DNA of 63,372 nucleotides, filler included, from a bacterium (lineage in GTDB: Bacteria > JAJRZV01): assembly GCA_024275095.1 (NCBI GenBank). It is 8 parts of 7 records of this genome, joined end to end, with 100 filler letters (N's around TTAATTAATTAA, not from the genome) between each part and the next. Parts side by side here need not be neighbours in the genome. Positions count along the whole stretch, not along the records: positions 50,331 to 53,340 come from JAJRZV010000049.1; 7 more parts are not named here. One strand, written 5' to 3'. Within the stretch, counting starts at the first letter, position 1. Every line of letters begins with the position of its first letter. Positions 50,331 through 53,440 of the stretch are shown here, one piece after another. Below the pieces are notes generated by a model. That model was not told the origin of the DNA. It made no database searches and worked only from the letters and a program-made list of their open reading frames with translations. The position numbers were made by a program, and so were the translations under genes.

Positions 50331-50337
50331 AAGAACC

Positions 50338-51153
50338 ATGGAAAAGAGAATGAGGGAGCCTTCGGTTGCCGGATACTTTTATCCCGGTAGTAAAACCGAG
50401 CTGGAAAAAACCGTAAGGTCATATCTCGCTCGCGCGGGCAGTACCTATCAGGATGTTAAAGGAATTTTATCTCCCCATGCAGGATACATGTATTCAGGTC
50501 CTGTGGCAGGTAAGGTTATTGGTTCAGTCCACATTCCCGAGTTTGTCATCATCCTGGGCCCCAATCATACAGGACTCGGAGCATCAGTCGCCGTCTATCC
50601 ACCGGGGATATGGCAGATGCCGGGTTTCGAAGTTCCAGTGGACGAAAACCTTTCTGCGCTCATCATGGACGGGTGGGAAAATGCCCGATGGGATGAACTC
50701 GCTCATCTCAAAGAACATTCACTGGAGGTCCAGGTACCGTTCCTGTACTACCGCAACCCGCGTGTAAAAATTGCTGCAGTGTGTCTTGGTTTTCACGATT
50801 TAAACGAAGCACGTGAGGGAGGACTTGCCCTTGCACGTGCAATTACCAGTTTCAACAAACCGTGTTTGATAGTTGCATCGAGCGACATGACCCATTATGA
50901 ACCGGACGGTGTGGCCAGGAAAAAAGACAACATTGCCATCGAATGCATGACAGCGCTTGATGAAAAGGGACTCTACGAAAAAGTCAACGCGTACGACATC
51001 AGCATGTGCGGCGTCATGCCCGCTATTGTGACCCTGGTGGCTGCAAAAGAACTCGGCGCTCGGGAAGGCCTGCTGGTCGAGTACATGACTTCCGGAGACA
51101 CCGGCGGCGGTCGAGCGCAGGTCGTTGGGTATGCAGGAATGGTGTTCCGGTGA
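50338..51153 (+). CDS. amrB: MEMO1-family protein (AmmeMemoRadiSam system protein B)
   Basis: R.P.VAG.FYP, PHAGY.YSG, GPNH, EHSLEVQ.PF, ASSD.THY, SMCG, VVGYAG. Confidence 0.92.
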   Translation: MEKRMREPSVAGYFYPGSKTELEKTVRSYLARAGSTYQDVKGILSPHAGYMYSGPVAGKVIGSVHIPEFVIILGPNHTGLGASVAVYPPGIWQMPGFEVPVDENLSALIMDGWENARWDELAHLKEHSLEVQVPFLYYRNPRVKIAAVCLGFHDLNEAREGGLALARAITSFNKPCLIVASSDMTHYEPDGVARKKDNIAIECMTALDEKGLYEKVNAYDISMCGVMPAIVTLVAAKELGAREGLLVEYMTSGDTGGGRAQVVGYAGMVFR

Positions 51154-51362
51154 AACGTACAGGTAAGGCTTCTGTCAAATACCGTAACCGCCGGTTAGAA
51201 GTGGACGCCCCTGTAAGGGTAAAAGATATTCTGCGCATACTCGACCTTTTGCCTGAGTATGTGGTGGTGTCCATCAACGGACAGATGGTGACTGAAAAAG
51301 ACATTGTCCAACCAGGTGATGAAGTCATTGTGGTTTCGGCCATCTCCGGAGGAGCTGAGTGA
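51150..51362 (+). CDS. ThiS/MoaD/TtuB-like ubiquitin-fold sulfur carrier
   Basis: GTG 51150 gives MKRTGK...VVVSINGQMV....V..GDEV.VVSAISGGAE*; overlaps both amrB and ttuA. Confidence 0.85.
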   Translation: MKRTGKASVKYRNRRLEVDAPVRVKDILRILDLLPEYVVVSINGQMVTEKDIVQPGDEVIVVSAISGGAE

Positions 51363-52381
51363 AGTGTCGGCGCTGCGGTGCACGCGCGGTGGCTCACCTG
51401 CGCCACCATAACCTCGCCCTTTGCGAGGAGTGCTACAGTCCATGGCTCCAGAGACGGGTTCGGGAAACAATTAAAAGATTCCACCTTTTCGACAGGAAAG
51501 CAAAAATTCTGGTAGCGGTTTCAGGAGGCAAGGATTCGCTTGCACTCTGGATGATTCTCACAAAACTCGGATATGAAGCAGACGGGCTTTATATTGATCT
51601 CGGGATTGATACAGAGAAATACAGCCAGCGTTCGCTTCAATACTCCAGGGCCATGGCCGAACGCCTGGAACGCACGCTCCATGTAATTACACTGCAAGAA
51701 ACTATCGGTAAAACCATTCCTGAGCTCCCTGCCGCCCGCGGGACGTGTTCTGTGTGTGGTCTGGTAAAACGACATTACATGAACACGTGGGCGATAGAAC
51801 ACGGGTATGATGTGACTGTAACAGGACACAATCTCGATGATGAAGCTGCAACTCTTTTGAGTAACGTTCTCAACTGGCAGCTGGGATACCTGGAAAGGCA
51901 AGCCCCCTGCCTCGATGAAAGAGAAGGATTTATCAGGAAGGCTAAGCCACTGGTTCTGTGCACGGAGAAAGAAATGCTCATTTACTGCATGTTAAACAAC
52001 ATAGAATACATCCAGGACGAATGCCCTTACTCAGTGAATGCAACTTCCATTTTTTACAAGGAGATTCTCAATCGTATAGAGCACGAAATCCCGGGAGCGA
52101 AACTGCGCTTTTACAGTGAATTCATCAAGGTAAAACACGGAATATTTAAAGGCTTCAGGAAGGAAAGGCTTACACCCTGTAAAATCTGCAAAACCCCTAC
52201 CACGGGGGAAATTTGTGCCTTCTGCAAAATCTGTATTGCCCCGCCCAAACCACAACATTCGATAAGGGAGACCTCAAGGGCCAGTTCAGGGCCCGTCAGG
52301 GCTAAAATAGAAAAATCTGGCAGGAATTCGATCAGCTCAAAAAACATGGAAATAAAGACAGGTTCAAAGAAGGAAGTGTAA
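51359..52381 (+). CDS. ttuA: tRNA 2-thiolation protein TtuA/Ncs6-type, with a foreign C-terminal extension
   Basis: N-terminal CxxC..LC..C, SGGKDS PP-loop, CSVCG..KR, TGHNLDDE, ECPY, C-terminal CKIC..CAFC. Confidence 0.88.
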   Translation: MKCRRCGARAVAHLRHHNLALCEECYSPWLQRRVRETIKRFHLFDRKAKILVAVSGGKDSLALWMILTKLGYEADGLYIDLGIDTEKYSQRSLQYSRAMAERLERTLHVITLQETIGKTIPELPAARGTCSVCGLVKRHYMNTWAIEHGYDVTVTGHNLDDEAATLLSNVLNWQLGYLERQAPCLDEREGFIRKAKPLVLCTEKEMLIYCMLNNIEYIQDECPYSVNATSIFYKEILNRIEHEIPGAKLRFYSEFIKVKHGIFKGFRKERLTPCKICKTPTTGEICAFCKICIAPPKPQHSIRETSRASSGPVRAKIEKSGRNSISSKNMEIKTGSKKEV

Positions 52382-52624
52382 GGGAGAGAGGAGAGAGCAT
52401 AAGTCCATCGGAGCAAAAACACTGGCAGTGCTTGCAGTACTTGAGGGAGGCTGTCAGTAAAAGGAGCGAAGATAAGATCTTCAGACAACGTAGATATTAT
52501 AACCGGCAAAGACCCGACTCAAGGCATCAGGACTCAGAACCCTGGCAAAAGTTTATTCTCAAATAAATCTTTTCACGAGATCAGGAAATTGAGCTTTGAC
52601 TCAGGTGTTACGGGATATAAAACA
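52232..52624 (+). mobile_element. Internally deleted IS481-like remnant
   Basis: Starts TGTATTGCCCCGCCCAAACCACAACA and ends ...GGGATATAAAACA (TGT...ACA termini). Frame-broken integrase-core tail YYNRQRP..QGIRT near 52495-52540. No clear target duplication. Confidence 0.5.
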
Positions 52625-52783
52625 TCCATCCAGGAGATGCACGCATGAGAAGAAGCTGTCTCGTATTGTATTCCTCTCTAAATTCACCTCAAACTCGTGA
52701 ACCTCCCGCCACCGCCTCTTGCCCATGCTCGTCCTCCCGTATGCCAGATACAGGTTACTGAAACTCGCTATTTTCTCAAACAT
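52625..52783 (-). pseudogene. Reverse transcriptase N-terminal fragment (DGR-like)
   Basis: FEKIASFSNLYLAY...GKR....V..FE.NLE.N matches the RT0 region of DGR/group II-like RTs; it then jumps to IRDSFFSC, similar to FIxDSYxC. Confidence 0.65.
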
Positions 52784-52811
52784 TTAAATTACCACGTCCA
52801 TTTCTTGAATC

Positions 52812-53340
52812 TTGAGAGCTCTACGATCCTTCTCTTCTTACAAACAGTTCATTAAATTTGCAGGTCTCAACCTGGTCTACTCCCAGTCTGGTAATTATTC
52901 AACTCCTCCGCACATTTCCAAACGTGGTCATCCTGAACCGAGAGAAGCATTGTATTTTTCTGCTACGAGAGTGATTAAATTCAGCCCTCATTTTAAAAAT
53001 TTCTACACCAGAGCATGTATACGCTACAGGTCTAAAAAATCAGCTCTTGTGGTTACATCTAAAAAAACTTGCCAGGGTAATATTTGCGCTTGTTAAGCAT
53101 CGTTCATTCTTTGACGAATCTCGTCTTGAAGGAGTTTAAAATGTACTTTACGGGGCGAGGTGACCACCCGGGTCGGGTTCGAGGAGCCTTTAAAAAGGTT
53201 ACCTCCCTCTTGAGAGTTGTGGCATCTCGCCCCTCATTTAACCCCTCTGAGCTCCCATGCTGCACCTTCGGGCTTCAAAGCCCCCAATTACCAGATTTGA
53301 GCCAGAGGGATTTTTTCCACTTGCCCCAACTAACATCCAT
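52812..53340 (+). mobile_element. IS110-family element, 3' remnant (recombinase C-terminal domain plus long non-coding right end)
   Basis: FSSYKQ..KFAGL.....QSG......ISKRG.P..R.ALY..A motif with the catalytic SG. After a frameshift in the A-run near 53061 it continues KKLARVIFALVKHRSFFDESRLEGV* to 53139. About 200 nt of non-coding DNA follow. Confidence 0.85.
53152..53316 (+). ncRNA. Putative IS110 bridge/seek RNA
   Basis: Two consecutive stem / symmetric internal loop / hairpin modules (53152-53233 and 53243-53309), then a U-tract, directly downstream of the IS110 recombinase stop. Confidence 0.65.
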
Positions 53341-53440
53341 NNNNNNNNNNNNNNNNNNNNNNNNNNNNNNNNNNNNNNNNNNNNTTAATTAATTAANNNN
53401 NNNNNNNNNNNNNNNNNNNNNNNNNNNNNNNNNNNNNNNN
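53341..53440. other. Artificial contig linker
   Basis: N-run + TTAATTAATTAA + N-run. Confidence 0.98.

What the first reader, a model, noticed from the sequence alone, without database searches (positions are those of the whole stretch)
53140..53340. Bridge/seek-RNA-like two-loop structure in the non-coding right end of an IS110 element
Seen: right after the IS110 recombinase stop, the DNA folds by eye into two matching modules. Module 1: GGGGCGAG-GTG-a-CCAC (53152-53167) pairs with GTGG-CAT-CTCGCCCC (53219-53233), enclosing a 13x13-nt internal loop (ccgggtcgggttc / cctcttgagagtt) capped by hairpin 53181-53205. Module 2: CCCTCTG-a-GCTC (53243-53254) pairs with GAGC-CAGAGGG (53299-53309), enclosing a 15x15-nt loop (ccatgctgcaccttc / ccaattaccagattt) capped by GGGCT-tcaa-AGCCC, then a U-tract. 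Both left loop strands start CC and end TTC, and both right strands start CC. A -35-like TTGCCC lies about 20 nt before the contig end. Established: IS110/IS1111 elements encode a non-coding guide RNA with target- and donor-binding loops and can form a promoter at the circle junction. Inference: this is such a guide RNA, its loop sequences would define a recombination specificity, and it looks better preserved than the frameshifted recombinase.
Basis: partly seen in the sequence, partly recalled or inferred. Interest (0 to 1): 0.8.

Follow-up and report, generated by a model that had tools for sequence, protein, structure and literature searches.

The report
Guide RNA of a truncated IS110 element
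The folded stretch is a real, conserved guide ("bridge" or "seek") RNA gene of an IS110-family jumping gene, here left behind next to a broken recombinase gene; it is a new example of a mechanism already described in 2024.

Summary
Observation confirmed, interpretation supported. Window 53148-53330 (+) folds into the two modules described (MFE -76.4 kcal/mol, z -4.74).

A covariance model built only from relatives finds it as the only hit in the window (52.8 bits, E 1e-13). The same RNA follows the recombinase stop codon in 35 of 55 related metagenome loci and 17 of 80 genome loci. Covariation is strong: 97.6% of cells paired, 35 of 35 pairs changed on both sides, slid controls 44-55%.

In intact relatives the module-1 loop strands match the flanks at both junctions, so module 1 binds the target. 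The module-2 strands match the element's own ends, so module 2 binds the donor.

The window's copy is defective. Only the last quarter of the recombinase remains, with one frameshift, and the contig ends before the right end. A 9-base match to the left-target guide sits exactly at the truncation point.

This is a new member of a known kind (Durrant 2024; Siddiquee 2024).

The parts
52810..52818 (+). TCTTGAGAG. It is identical to the central 9 nt of loop strand L1b, the left-target guide plus core. It lies exactly where recombinase homology begins, so it is the probable retained left target half-site.
   Evidence: the 9-mer occurs only twice in the 63-kb window on both strands, here and in L1b; the profile alignment starts at 52812.
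52812..53069 (+). C-terminal remnant of an IS110-family recombinase (Transposase_20 part, family-profile positions 306-391 of 418). There is no DEDD domain and no helix-hairpin-helix region upstream.
   Evidence: PF02371, E 1.8e-12; hmmsearch 73.7 bits, positions 306-391, nothing upstream in any frame with stops read as X; tblastn gives the same boundary.
53061..53067 (+). A7 run in or next to which the reading frame shifts. The tail continues in the next frame.
   Evidence: translations; profile positions 381-410 align in the other frame, 53038-53127.
53059..53139 (+). Recombinase tail in the shifted frame (…KKLARVIFALVKHRSFFDESRLEGV), ending at stop TAA 53137-53139.
53152..53233 (+). Module 1, the target-binding module. 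Stem P1 is 53152-53167 paired with 53219-53233. Loop strand L1a is 53168-53180 (CCGGGTCGGGTTC), the cap hairpin is 53181-53205, and loop strand L1b is 53206-53218 (CCTCTTGAGAGTT).
   Evidence: fold. (covariation); in relatives L1a is complementary to core plus right flank, and L1b is identical to left flank plus core.
53243..53309 (+). Module 2, the donor-binding module. Stem P2 is 53243-53254 paired with 53299-53309. Loop strand L2a is 53255-53269 (CCATGCTGCACCTTC), the cap is 53270-53283, and loop strand L2b is 53284-53298 (CCAATTACCAGATTT).
   Evidence: in relatives L2b equals right-end terminus plus core, and L2a is complementary to the left-end start. ACCAG is conserved across the family.
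53311..53316 (+). T6 run after P2. It is absent from most relatives, and the terminator scan did not call it.
53321..53328 (+). CTTGCCCC can pair with GGGGCGAG (53152-53159). This is the window's version of a closing helix P0 that is conserved, with different sequences, in relatives.
   Evidence: a run of 6 bp or more in 24 of 26 distinct relatives plus window, and p<0.05 against shuffles in 18 of 26. The window alone gives 8 bp, p 0.07.
53341..53440 (.). N spacer marking the end of the contig. The rest of the right end (subterminal repeat, -35, terminus, right target flank) is not in the data.

Best explanation
Window 53148-53330 (+) is the guide-RNA gene (bridge RNA / seekRNA) of an IS110-family insertion sequence organised like the IS1111 group. 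Such elements have a short left end, a recombinase of about 415 aa, the RNA 8-12 nt after the stop codon, and a long right end with a subterminal inverted repeat.

The RNA has two stem / internal-loop / hairpin modules.
- Module 1 is the target-binding loop. Its 5' strand pairs with the top strand of core plus right target flank. Its 3' strand has the sequence of left target flank plus core, so it pairs with the bottom strand.
- Module 2 is the donor-binding loop. Its 3' strand has the sequence of the right-end terminus plus core. Its 5' strand is complementary to the start of the left end.
- All four guides meet at a short core (GA in this copy), which is why both 5' loop strands end in TC.

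Shown:
- the fold
- its membership of a conserved, covarying RNA family that always follows this recombinase
- the guide-to-junction matches in intact relatives

Inferred:
- the RNA is made and used by the recombinase in the way shown experimentally for IS621, ISEc11 and others
- this copy's predicted specificity is left target TCTTGA-GA, right target ACCCGACCC, and donor ends …ATTACCA-GA and GA-AGGTGCAGC…

The copy in the window is a remnant. About 300 codons of the recombinase and the whole left end are gone and one frameshift remains. By itself it cannot move. At most it could supply RNA to intact copies elsewhere.
For: Fold: z -4.74, 0 of 200 shuffles as good.

Family membership:
- Model R1 (window only) hits 26 of 55 related loci, all on the + strand just after the stop.
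- Model R2 (15 relatives, window excluded) hits the window once, at 53148-53334 (52.8 bits, E 1e-13). It also hits 35 of 55 metagenome loci and 17 of 80 genome loci.
- In 32 of those 35 loci the hit starts -2 to +12 nt after the stop. The window's gap is 8 nt.

Covariation:
- Alignment A4 has 95.2% of cells paired, 33 of 41 pairs changed on both sides, 0 of 500 shuffles as high, and slid controls at 39-56%.
- Alignment A7 has 97.6% paired, 35 of 35 pairs changed on both sides, and slid controls at 44-55%.
- RNAalifold on a plain MAFFT alignment of relatives recovers both modules de novo.

Guides in relatives:
- The longest exact run between cognate L1b and the left junction averages 7.5 nt. 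It is 8 nt or more in 9 of 17 junctions, against mean 4.4 and 3.2% of 371 non-cognate pairs.
- For the reverse complement of L1a against the right junction the mean is 8.1 nt. It is 8 nt or more in 9 of 15, against mean 5.1 and 7.3% of 314 non-cognate pairs.
- Variable bases covary between subgroups: AAAT/ATTT, ACAT/ATGT, AGCC/GGCT, GGACGTCC.
- In 12 further, more divergent loci searched without anchors, 6 of the 9 with enough upstream sequence have an L1b run of 7 nt or more abutting the left-end motif TGCTATA. The L2a complement overlaps that run by 1 nt.
- In the same loci the L1a complement abuts the right-end …AAACCAG, and L2b overlaps it by 2-3 nt.

Relatives' proteins are NF033542 'IS110 family RNA-guided transposase' (211-224 bits, cutoff 140) with PF01548 plus PF02371.

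Window: L1b's 9-mer lies at the truncation boundary and nowhere else in 63 kb.

Published mechanism: Durrant 2024, PMC11208160 (passages on IS1111 read). Siddiquee 2024, PMC11187229 (abstract and sections 6 and 9 read). The seekRNA strand order reported there for IS1111 types, with the top-strand complement 5' of the bottom-strand complement, is the order seen here.
Against: Evidence against, and limits:
- There are no expression data. No sequencing run was listed for this DNA, and no + strand promoter-like site was found in 52382-53340.
- The window's own right junction, left end and donor sequences are missing, so three of its four guides cannot be checked against its own DNA.
- The predicted target is absent from the 63-kb window (0 matches at up to 3 mismatches).
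- No close relative exists. The best protein identity is about 40% among 1.84 billion representatives, and nothing was found with the window's own peptides. The window's RNA is therefore the most divergent member of its family.
- Some relatives fit imperfectly: L003, L018 and L013 on the left, L010, L027 and L054 on the right.
- Alignments A4 and A7 were fitted to the model, which inflates pair counts. The MAFFT/RNAalifold control recovers the architecture but not the inner 4 bp of P2.
- The recombinases are about 415 aa, longer than the 330-350 aa given for IS1111 proper.
Confidence: 0.85

Rival explanations
1. It is the same RNA gene by descent but still in use. The recombinase-less remnant supplies guide RNA in trans to full-length copies elsewhere in the genome, or is itself mobilised by them as a module, as reported for ssr9 of ISPpu9.
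For: All 41 model pairs are intact. The family-conserved loop bases are kept: GGGTC in L1a, ACCAGA in L2b, GCA in L2a. Its R2 score of 52.8 bits is in the range of intact divergent members, 41-61 bits. The contig breaks inside the element, which often signals repeats. The ISPpu9 paper (PMC12288879, abstract read) reports solo copies and circles holding the RNA gene alone.
Against: No other copy lies in the 63-kb window, and no whole genome or reads could be examined. The left end needed for circle formation is absent. The retained gene fragment is about as well preserved as the RNA, so no selection on the RNA can be inferred. No promoter-like site was found.
Confidence: 0.25
2. It is an unrelated structured element, such as a terminator, a 3' UTR stabiliser or a REP-like repeat, that merely sits behind the recombinase gene.
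For: A T6 run follows the second stem. No Rfam family matches.
Against: The T run is absent in most relatives and the terminator scan calls nothing. The unpaired loop strands, not only the stems, track the junction sequences of each relative, which a terminator or stabiliser would not do.
Confidence: 0.03
3. It is a chance fold in GC-rich non-coding DNA.
For: None beyond the fact that single-sequence folds can mislead.
Against: z is -4.74. An independent model hits it at E 1e-13. 35 of 35 pairs covary.
Confidence: 0.01

Closest known systems
IS1111-group bridge RNA / seekRNA (ISEc11, ISKpn4, ISPa11; Siddiquee et al. 2024, PMC11187229; Durrant et al. 2024, PMC11208160)
   Same: The RNA is encoded downstream of the recombinase in a long right end, with a short left end. 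Subterminal inverted repeats are present (9 bp, TAACCCAGT / ACTGGGTTA, covarying with TAACCAAGT / ACTTGGTTA). The guide complementary to the top strand lies 5' of the guide complementary to the bottom strand. A -35 in the right end and a -10 in the left end come 17 nt apart when the ends are joined (motifs read).
   Different: The recombinases are about 415 aa, against the 330-350 aa stated for IS1111, and carry AGLNL instead of the usual GL-P motif. Both guide pairs sit in simple symmetric internal loops, whereas Durrant et al. note that many IS1111 orthologues place the donor guides in a multi-loop. Phylogenetic placement against IS1111 itself was not tested. Those papers' supplementary lists of elements could not be seen, so this clade may or may not be covered there.
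IS621 / IS110-group bridge RNA (Durrant 2024; Hiraizumi 2024, PMC11208158, search listing only)
   Same: It has a two-loop architecture with a target-binding and a donor-binding internal loop. Each loop has a left and a right guide that overlap at a dinucleotide core. The recombinase has DEDD plus Transposase_20 domains.
   Different: The IS621 RNA is encoded in the left end, upstream of the gene, and its guide strand order is reversed (Siddiquee abstract). No sequence similarity is detectable, and Rfam 15 gives no match.
ISPpu9 / Ssr9 of Pseudomonas putida (PMC12288879, abstract read)
   Same: It is an IS110-family element with a small-RNA gene downstream of the transposase gene, and copies of the RNA gene occur without the transposase.
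   Different: [quoted passage not shown] Here the loops match target and donor, as for a true guide, and the solo state is explained by truncation.

Membership tests
IS110-family guide RNA (bridge RNA / seekRNA) | Encoded in a non-coding end of an element that encodes a DEDD plus Transposase_20 recombinase | tested here: met
   Window: the RNA starts 8-12 nt after the stop of a Transposase_20 remnant. Relatives: full-length NF033542 / PF01548 plus PF02371 proteins, with the RNA -2 to +12 nt after the stop in 32 of 35 loci. The DEDD domain itself is missing in the window.
IS110-family guide RNA (bridge RNA / seekRNA) | Conserved secondary structure with two internal loops | tested here: met
   97.6% of cells are paired, 35 of 35 pairs are changed on both sides, and slid controls give 44-55%.
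IS110-family guide RNA (bridge RNA / seekRNA) | One loop carries two guides matching opposite strands of the target on either side of a core | tested here: met
   Relatives: (cognate against non-cognate runs, covarying variable bases). Window: the left guide matches 9 of 9 at 52810-52818. The right guide is untestable because the contig ends.
IS110-family guide RNA (bridge RNA / seekRNA) | The other loop carries two guides matching the element's own left and right termini (the donor) | tested here: met
   Relatives only. L2b ACCAGAAT equals right terminus plus core plus the first left-end bases, and the L2a complement AATGCT equals the left-end start. Both covary in subgroup H (ACCTGG, AGTGCT) and in divergent members (CTTGCT, ATCAGG, TAAATTAGC). 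The window's own termini are absent.
IS110-family guide RNA (bridge RNA / seekRNA) | The RNA is transcribed, binds the recombinase and is required for and programs recombination | not testable with these tools
   No run was listed.
IS1111 group of the IS110 family | Subterminal inverted repeats of 7-17 bp, a long right end and a short left end | tested here: met
   Relatives: a 9-bp repeat lies 6-7 nt inside each end. The left end is about 76-100 nt and the right end about 266 nt. This cannot be tested in the window.
IS1111 group of the IS110 family | Transposase of 330-350 aa related over its full length to that of IS1111 (Siddiquee 2024) | tested here: not met
   Length only. Relatives are 395-460 aa, mostly 416-417. 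Relatedness to IS1111 itself was not tested because no reference sequence was on hand. The element is therefore filed as 'IS110 family, IS1111-like organisation', not as IS1111 group.
Any Rfam 15 family | A match at or near the gathering score | tested here: not met
   There is no hit at E<=1 in window 52300-53341 and none at gathering score in 8 relatives.

The most novel reading that the evidence does not exclude
The remnant was made by the element's own RNA-guided recombinase. A recombination between the left junction (left target half-site plus core, still present at 52810-52818) and a pseudo-site inside the recombinase gene removed the left end and about 300 codons. This left a recombinase-less 'guide-RNA module'.

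The family RNA also carries a conserved pair of mutually exclusive helices: P0, which closes both modules, against the outer half of P1. These could switch the target loop on and off.

Either point would add self-inflicted, guide-directed deletions or a conformational switch to the known biology of bridge RNAs.
Probability: 0.15. Interest if true: 0.6.

Novelty: new member of a known kind. Interest (0 to 1): 0.4.

Why it matters
It shows that a reader working from sequence alone can spot a bridge/seek RNA.

It also defines a coherent clade that Rfam does not hold. The recombinases are about 415 aa and the RNA is about 180 nt and encoded 3' of the gene. Members occur in NC10, Syntrophales, Dehalococcoidales, Atribacterota, WOR-3 and Bacillota MAGs.

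The target and donor code of this clade can be read directly from natural insertions. The guides sit in clean symmetric loops, which could interest people mining programmable recombinases.

For the biology of this genome the locus is a dead remnant.

Tried and rejected
Searches that found nothing:
- Rfam gave no match.
- The whole genome is not held.
- Sequencing runs: none was listed, and no RNA holder was listed.
- There is no other copy in the window.
- Earlier scan notes held nothing relevant.
- Searches with the window's own 94-aa ORF found no close relatives. The word search among longer proteins gave none at E<=0.001. Neither did metagenome contigs or genome contigs.
- The plasmid DNA search gave no match. 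The plasmid tblastn with a relative gave at most 37.6% identity and generic names only.

Readings considered and rejected:
- I first read 52382-52811 as a decayed upstream part of the recombinase with in-frame stops (two long tblastn alignments). The family profile, with stops read as X and filters off, aligns nothing before 52812, so I rejected that reading.
- An apparent left junction at 52715-52729 (7-mers of L1b and L2a side by side) does not fit the family register. Single 7-mers are expected by chance.
- The 10-nt complement of L2b at 52887-52896, inside the SG-motif codons, has no counterpart in 11 relatives. I take it as chance.
- The second truncated copy, L031 (profile positions 303-410), has no left-guide match at its boundary. 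A recurrent guide-directed truncation is therefore not supported.
- L1a is 12 of 13 identical to the right-end repeat of the L038-type relatives. The flanks do not fit a target, so this stays a curiosity.

Narrower alignments were used instead.

Full report
WHAT IS IN THE WINDOW

The window is a chain of contigs joined by N44-TTAATTAATTAA-N44 spacers. The finding lies at the right end of a 3,010-bp contig, 50331-53340.

That contig carries an AmmeMemoRadiSam-B/MEMO1 gene (50338-51153) and a TtuA-like tRNA sulfurtransferase gene (51359-52381). About 430 nt of unassigned DNA follow, and then an IS110-family remnant.

ORF 52812-53096 matches Pfam Transposase_20 (E 1.8e-12). I built a profile from 42 full-length relatives. 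It aligns its positions 306-391 of 418 to 52812-53069. Positions 381-410 align in the next frame, up to the TAA at 53137-53139. Nothing aligns upstream in any frame, with stops read as X and all filters off. tblastn with 150 library representatives and 16 locus-derived proteins gives the same picture.

So the left end and roughly 300 codons of the recombinase are missing. The frame also shifts in or beside the A7 run at 53061-53067. The retained 320 nt have no in-frame stop.

THE OBSERVATION

The MFE is -76.4 kcal/mol against -55.2 +/- 4.5 for shuffles (z -4.74, 0 of 200 as good). The opposite strand gives z -2.43.

RELATIVES

The ORF has no close relative.
- The best of 247 hits among 1.84 billion representatives is about 40% identical.
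- The word search among longer proteins gave none.
- Scans of metagenome and genome contigs with the ORF's own peptides found none.

The top hits that share its unusual AGLNL motif form a coherent clade of proteins of about 415 aa. An alignment of 12 of them fetched 55 metagenome loci. A second alignment fetched 80 genome loci. The closest of those are in an NC10 MAG. More distant ones are in Syntrophales, deltaproteobacterial, Dehalococcoidales, Atribacterota, WOR-3 and Bacillota MAGs, and in cultured Paenibacillus and Coriobacteriia.

Three relatives tested are NF033542 'IS110 family RNA-guided transposase' (211-224 bits, cutoff 140) with PF01548 plus PF02371.

THE RNA IS A CONSERVED FAMILY

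A covariance model made from the window's sequence alone (R1, 41 pairs) hit 26 of the 55 loci. Every hit was on the + strand, immediately after the recombinase stop.

To remove circularity I built R2 from 15 relatives without the window.
- R2 finds the window's RNA as the only hit in 63 kb: 53148-53334, 52.8 bits, E 1e-13.
- It hits 35 of 55 metagenome loci. Adding L038 and L054, which R1 found, makes 37 of 55.
- It hits 17 of 80 genome loci.
- In 32 of the 35 loci the hit starts -2 to +12 nt after the stop codon. The window's gap is 8 nt.

Pair counts:
- On A4 (23 distinct rows) 95.2% of cells are paired, 33 of 41 pairs are changed on both sides, 0 of 500 shuffles are as high, and slid controls give 39-56%.
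- On A7 (34 distinct rows) 97.6% are paired, 35 of 35 pairs are changed on both sides, and slid controls give 44-55%.

Both alignments were fitted to a model, which favours the structure. As a control, RNAalifold on a plain MAFFT alignment of 18 relatives predicts P1, both cap hairpins and the outer P2 de novo. It misses the inner 4 bp of P2.

Rfam 15 has no match in the window or in 8 relatives.

WHAT THE LOOPS DO, READ FROM INTACT RELATIVES

Near-identical copies in different contexts define an element of about 1,635 bp. The pairs used were L011/L013 (99.5% identical), L005/L006/L007 and L023/L024. Its parts are:
- a left end of 76-100 nt
- the recombinase gene
- the RNA
- a right end of about 266 nt
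- a 9-bp subterminal inverted repeat, TAACCCAGT / ACTGGGTTA, which covaries with TAACCAAGT / ACTTGGTTA

Joining the right terminus (…AAACC-AGA) to the left start (ATGCTATAAC…) would place TTGACT and TATAAC 17 nt apart. That is the junction promoter known for this family. This comes from my reading of the motifs and was not run as a scan.

Module 1:
- The reverse complement of its 5' strand (L1a) matches the right junction from the core into the flank. Examples are AGATTTGACCC, 11 of 11, in L005/L007/L015, and GATGTGACCCC in L011.
- Its 3' strand (L1b) equals the left flank plus core. Examples are GAATAAAGAA in L005/L009, TGTCAAGAA in L004/L008, TTTTATGAG in L028 and CGGGGAGAG in L038.
- Over 17 distinct left junctions the longest exact run averages 7.5 nt and is 8 nt or more in 9. 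Non-cognate guide/junction pairs give mean 4.4, with 3.2% of 371 reaching 8 nt.
- Over 15 right junctions the mean is 8.1 nt, with 9 at 8 nt or more. Non-cognate pairs give mean 5.1 and 7.3% of 314.
- Misfits are listed there: L003, L013 and L018 on the left, and L010, L027 and L054 on the right.

Twelve further, more divergent loci were searched without any anchor motif.
- In 6 of the 9 with enough upstream DNA, the best L1b run (7-9 nt) lies directly against the left-end motif TGCTATA.
- The best run of the L2a complement (6 nt) overlaps it by one base.
- On the right, the L1a complement abuts …AAACCA(G), and the L2b run overlaps it by 2-3 nt.

Module 2 strands are conserved wherever the element ends are conserved: AGCA in L2a and ACCAG in L2b. 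They change with the ends in subgroup H: ACCTGG, and AGCACT for AGTGCT.

This is the published logic of a target-binding and a donor-binding loop. The strand order matches what Siddiquee et al. report for IS1111-type seekRNAs.

BACK TO THE WINDOW

By the family register, the guides predict this specificity:

| Guide | Sequence | Predicts |
|---|---|---|
| L1b | CCTCTTGAGAGTT | left target TCTTGA plus core GA |
| L1a | CCGGGTCGGGTTC | core GA plus right target ACCCGACCC |
| L2b | CCAATTACCAGATTT | right terminus …ATTACCA-GA |
| L2a | CCATGCTGCACCTTC | left end starting GA-AGGTGCAGC |

That TC is the complement of the GA core.

Only one of these predictions can be checked. TCTTGAGAG occurs at 52810-52818, exactly where recombinase homology begins, and nowhere else in the window except in L1b itself. 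The chance of such a 9-mer within 20 nt of that point is below about 1e-4. After allowing for the other guides and registers I would have accepted, my estimate is about 0.002-0.003.

I read it as the retained left target half-site. The DNA to its left would then be the original flank, and the deletion removed the element's left kilobase up to the junction.

Whether the element's own recombinase made that deletion is open. Half-site-driven events are reported for IS621 in a 2026 preprint whose abstract I read. The other truncated copy I found (L031, profile positions 303-410) shows no such match.

The predicted full target is not in the window.

THE 3' TAIL

The T6 run is not a family feature. 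CTTGCCCC (53321-53328) can pair with GGGGCGAG (53152-53159). An equivalent helix joins the 5' flank plus the first 6 nt of P1 to a segment about 16 nt beyond P2.
- It is present as a run of 6 bp or more in 24 of 26 distinct sequences, with unrelated sequences in different subgroups.
- It beats shuffles at p<0.05 in 18 of 26. The window alone gives p 0.07.

In relatives the real -35 lies next to the subterminal repeat, beyond where this contig stops.

P0 and the outer half of P1 use the same 5' strand, and both covary. I did not resolve what that means.

VERDICT

This is a genuine guide-RNA gene of an IS110-family element with IS1111-like organisation. Structurally it is intact, but it sits in a dead, 5'-truncated copy at a contig end.

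The kind is known since 2024. The clade and its RNA are not in Rfam. I could not see the supplementary catalogues of the two founding papers, so 'new member of a known kind' is the safest label.

No expression data could be obtained. No + strand promoter-like site was seen.

Noticed in passing
window 53152-53159 with 53321-53328; relatives, e.g. L011 2141-2152 with the segment about 16 nt after P2: A closing helix P0 is conserved across the RNA family with different sequences in different subgroups. It shares its 5' strand with the outer half of P1, so the two helices are mutually exclusive. This may be a conformational switch or a feature of a longer precursor.
   Followed up: partly
L013 2571-2698: Directly after the right end of the L013 element lies a second, 5'-truncated copy of the RNA, starting inside loop strand L2a (R2 67.6 bits). 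It is preceded by a CT-rich run similar to the one at the truncation point of L031.
   Followed up: no
L015 about 222-240 (left flank), compared with L009 48-120: L015 and L009 share the same left flank. L015 carries an extra 15 nt there that reads like an uninterrupted target site (left half, core, right half TTTGACC) just before the occupied one. The targets may be short tandemly repeated motifs.
   Followed up: no
L018 about 1868-1890: The left junction of this copy reads like right terminus plus core (TAAACCAGA) fused to the left end. That is a donor-like rather than target-like flank. It fits an insertion next to a donor-like half-site or a footprint of a tandem copy.
   Followed up: no
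window 53168-53180, compared with L038 about 1580-1600 and L054 about 2040-2055: The window's L1a (CCGGGTCGGGTTC) is 12 of 13 identical to the right-end subterminal repeat region of the L038/L054-type relatives. The neighbouring bases do not fit a target, so the meaning is unknown.
   Followed up: partly
window 52887-52896: A 10-nt perfect complement of L2b (TCTGGTAATT) lies inside the codons of the catalytic SG motif. No counterpart was seen in 11 relatives, so it is probably chance.
   Followed up: yes
L027 nt 1 (equals L028 nt 1618); L035 nt 2; L031 about 2975-2983; window 52812: Two contig starts (L027 and L035) and two true truncations (L031 and the window) all fall at profile positions 303-311 of the recombinase. 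Four more fall at 260-269 (L029, L036, L049, L052). This could be a breakpoint hot spot, or an effect of how the loci were found, since all had to contain positions about 306-391.
   Followed up: no
P0001 (934 aa): The best-scoring library protein has nine matched stretches to residues 45-84 of the query, that is, a repeated Transposase_20 segment in one long protein. It was not examined.
   Followed up: no
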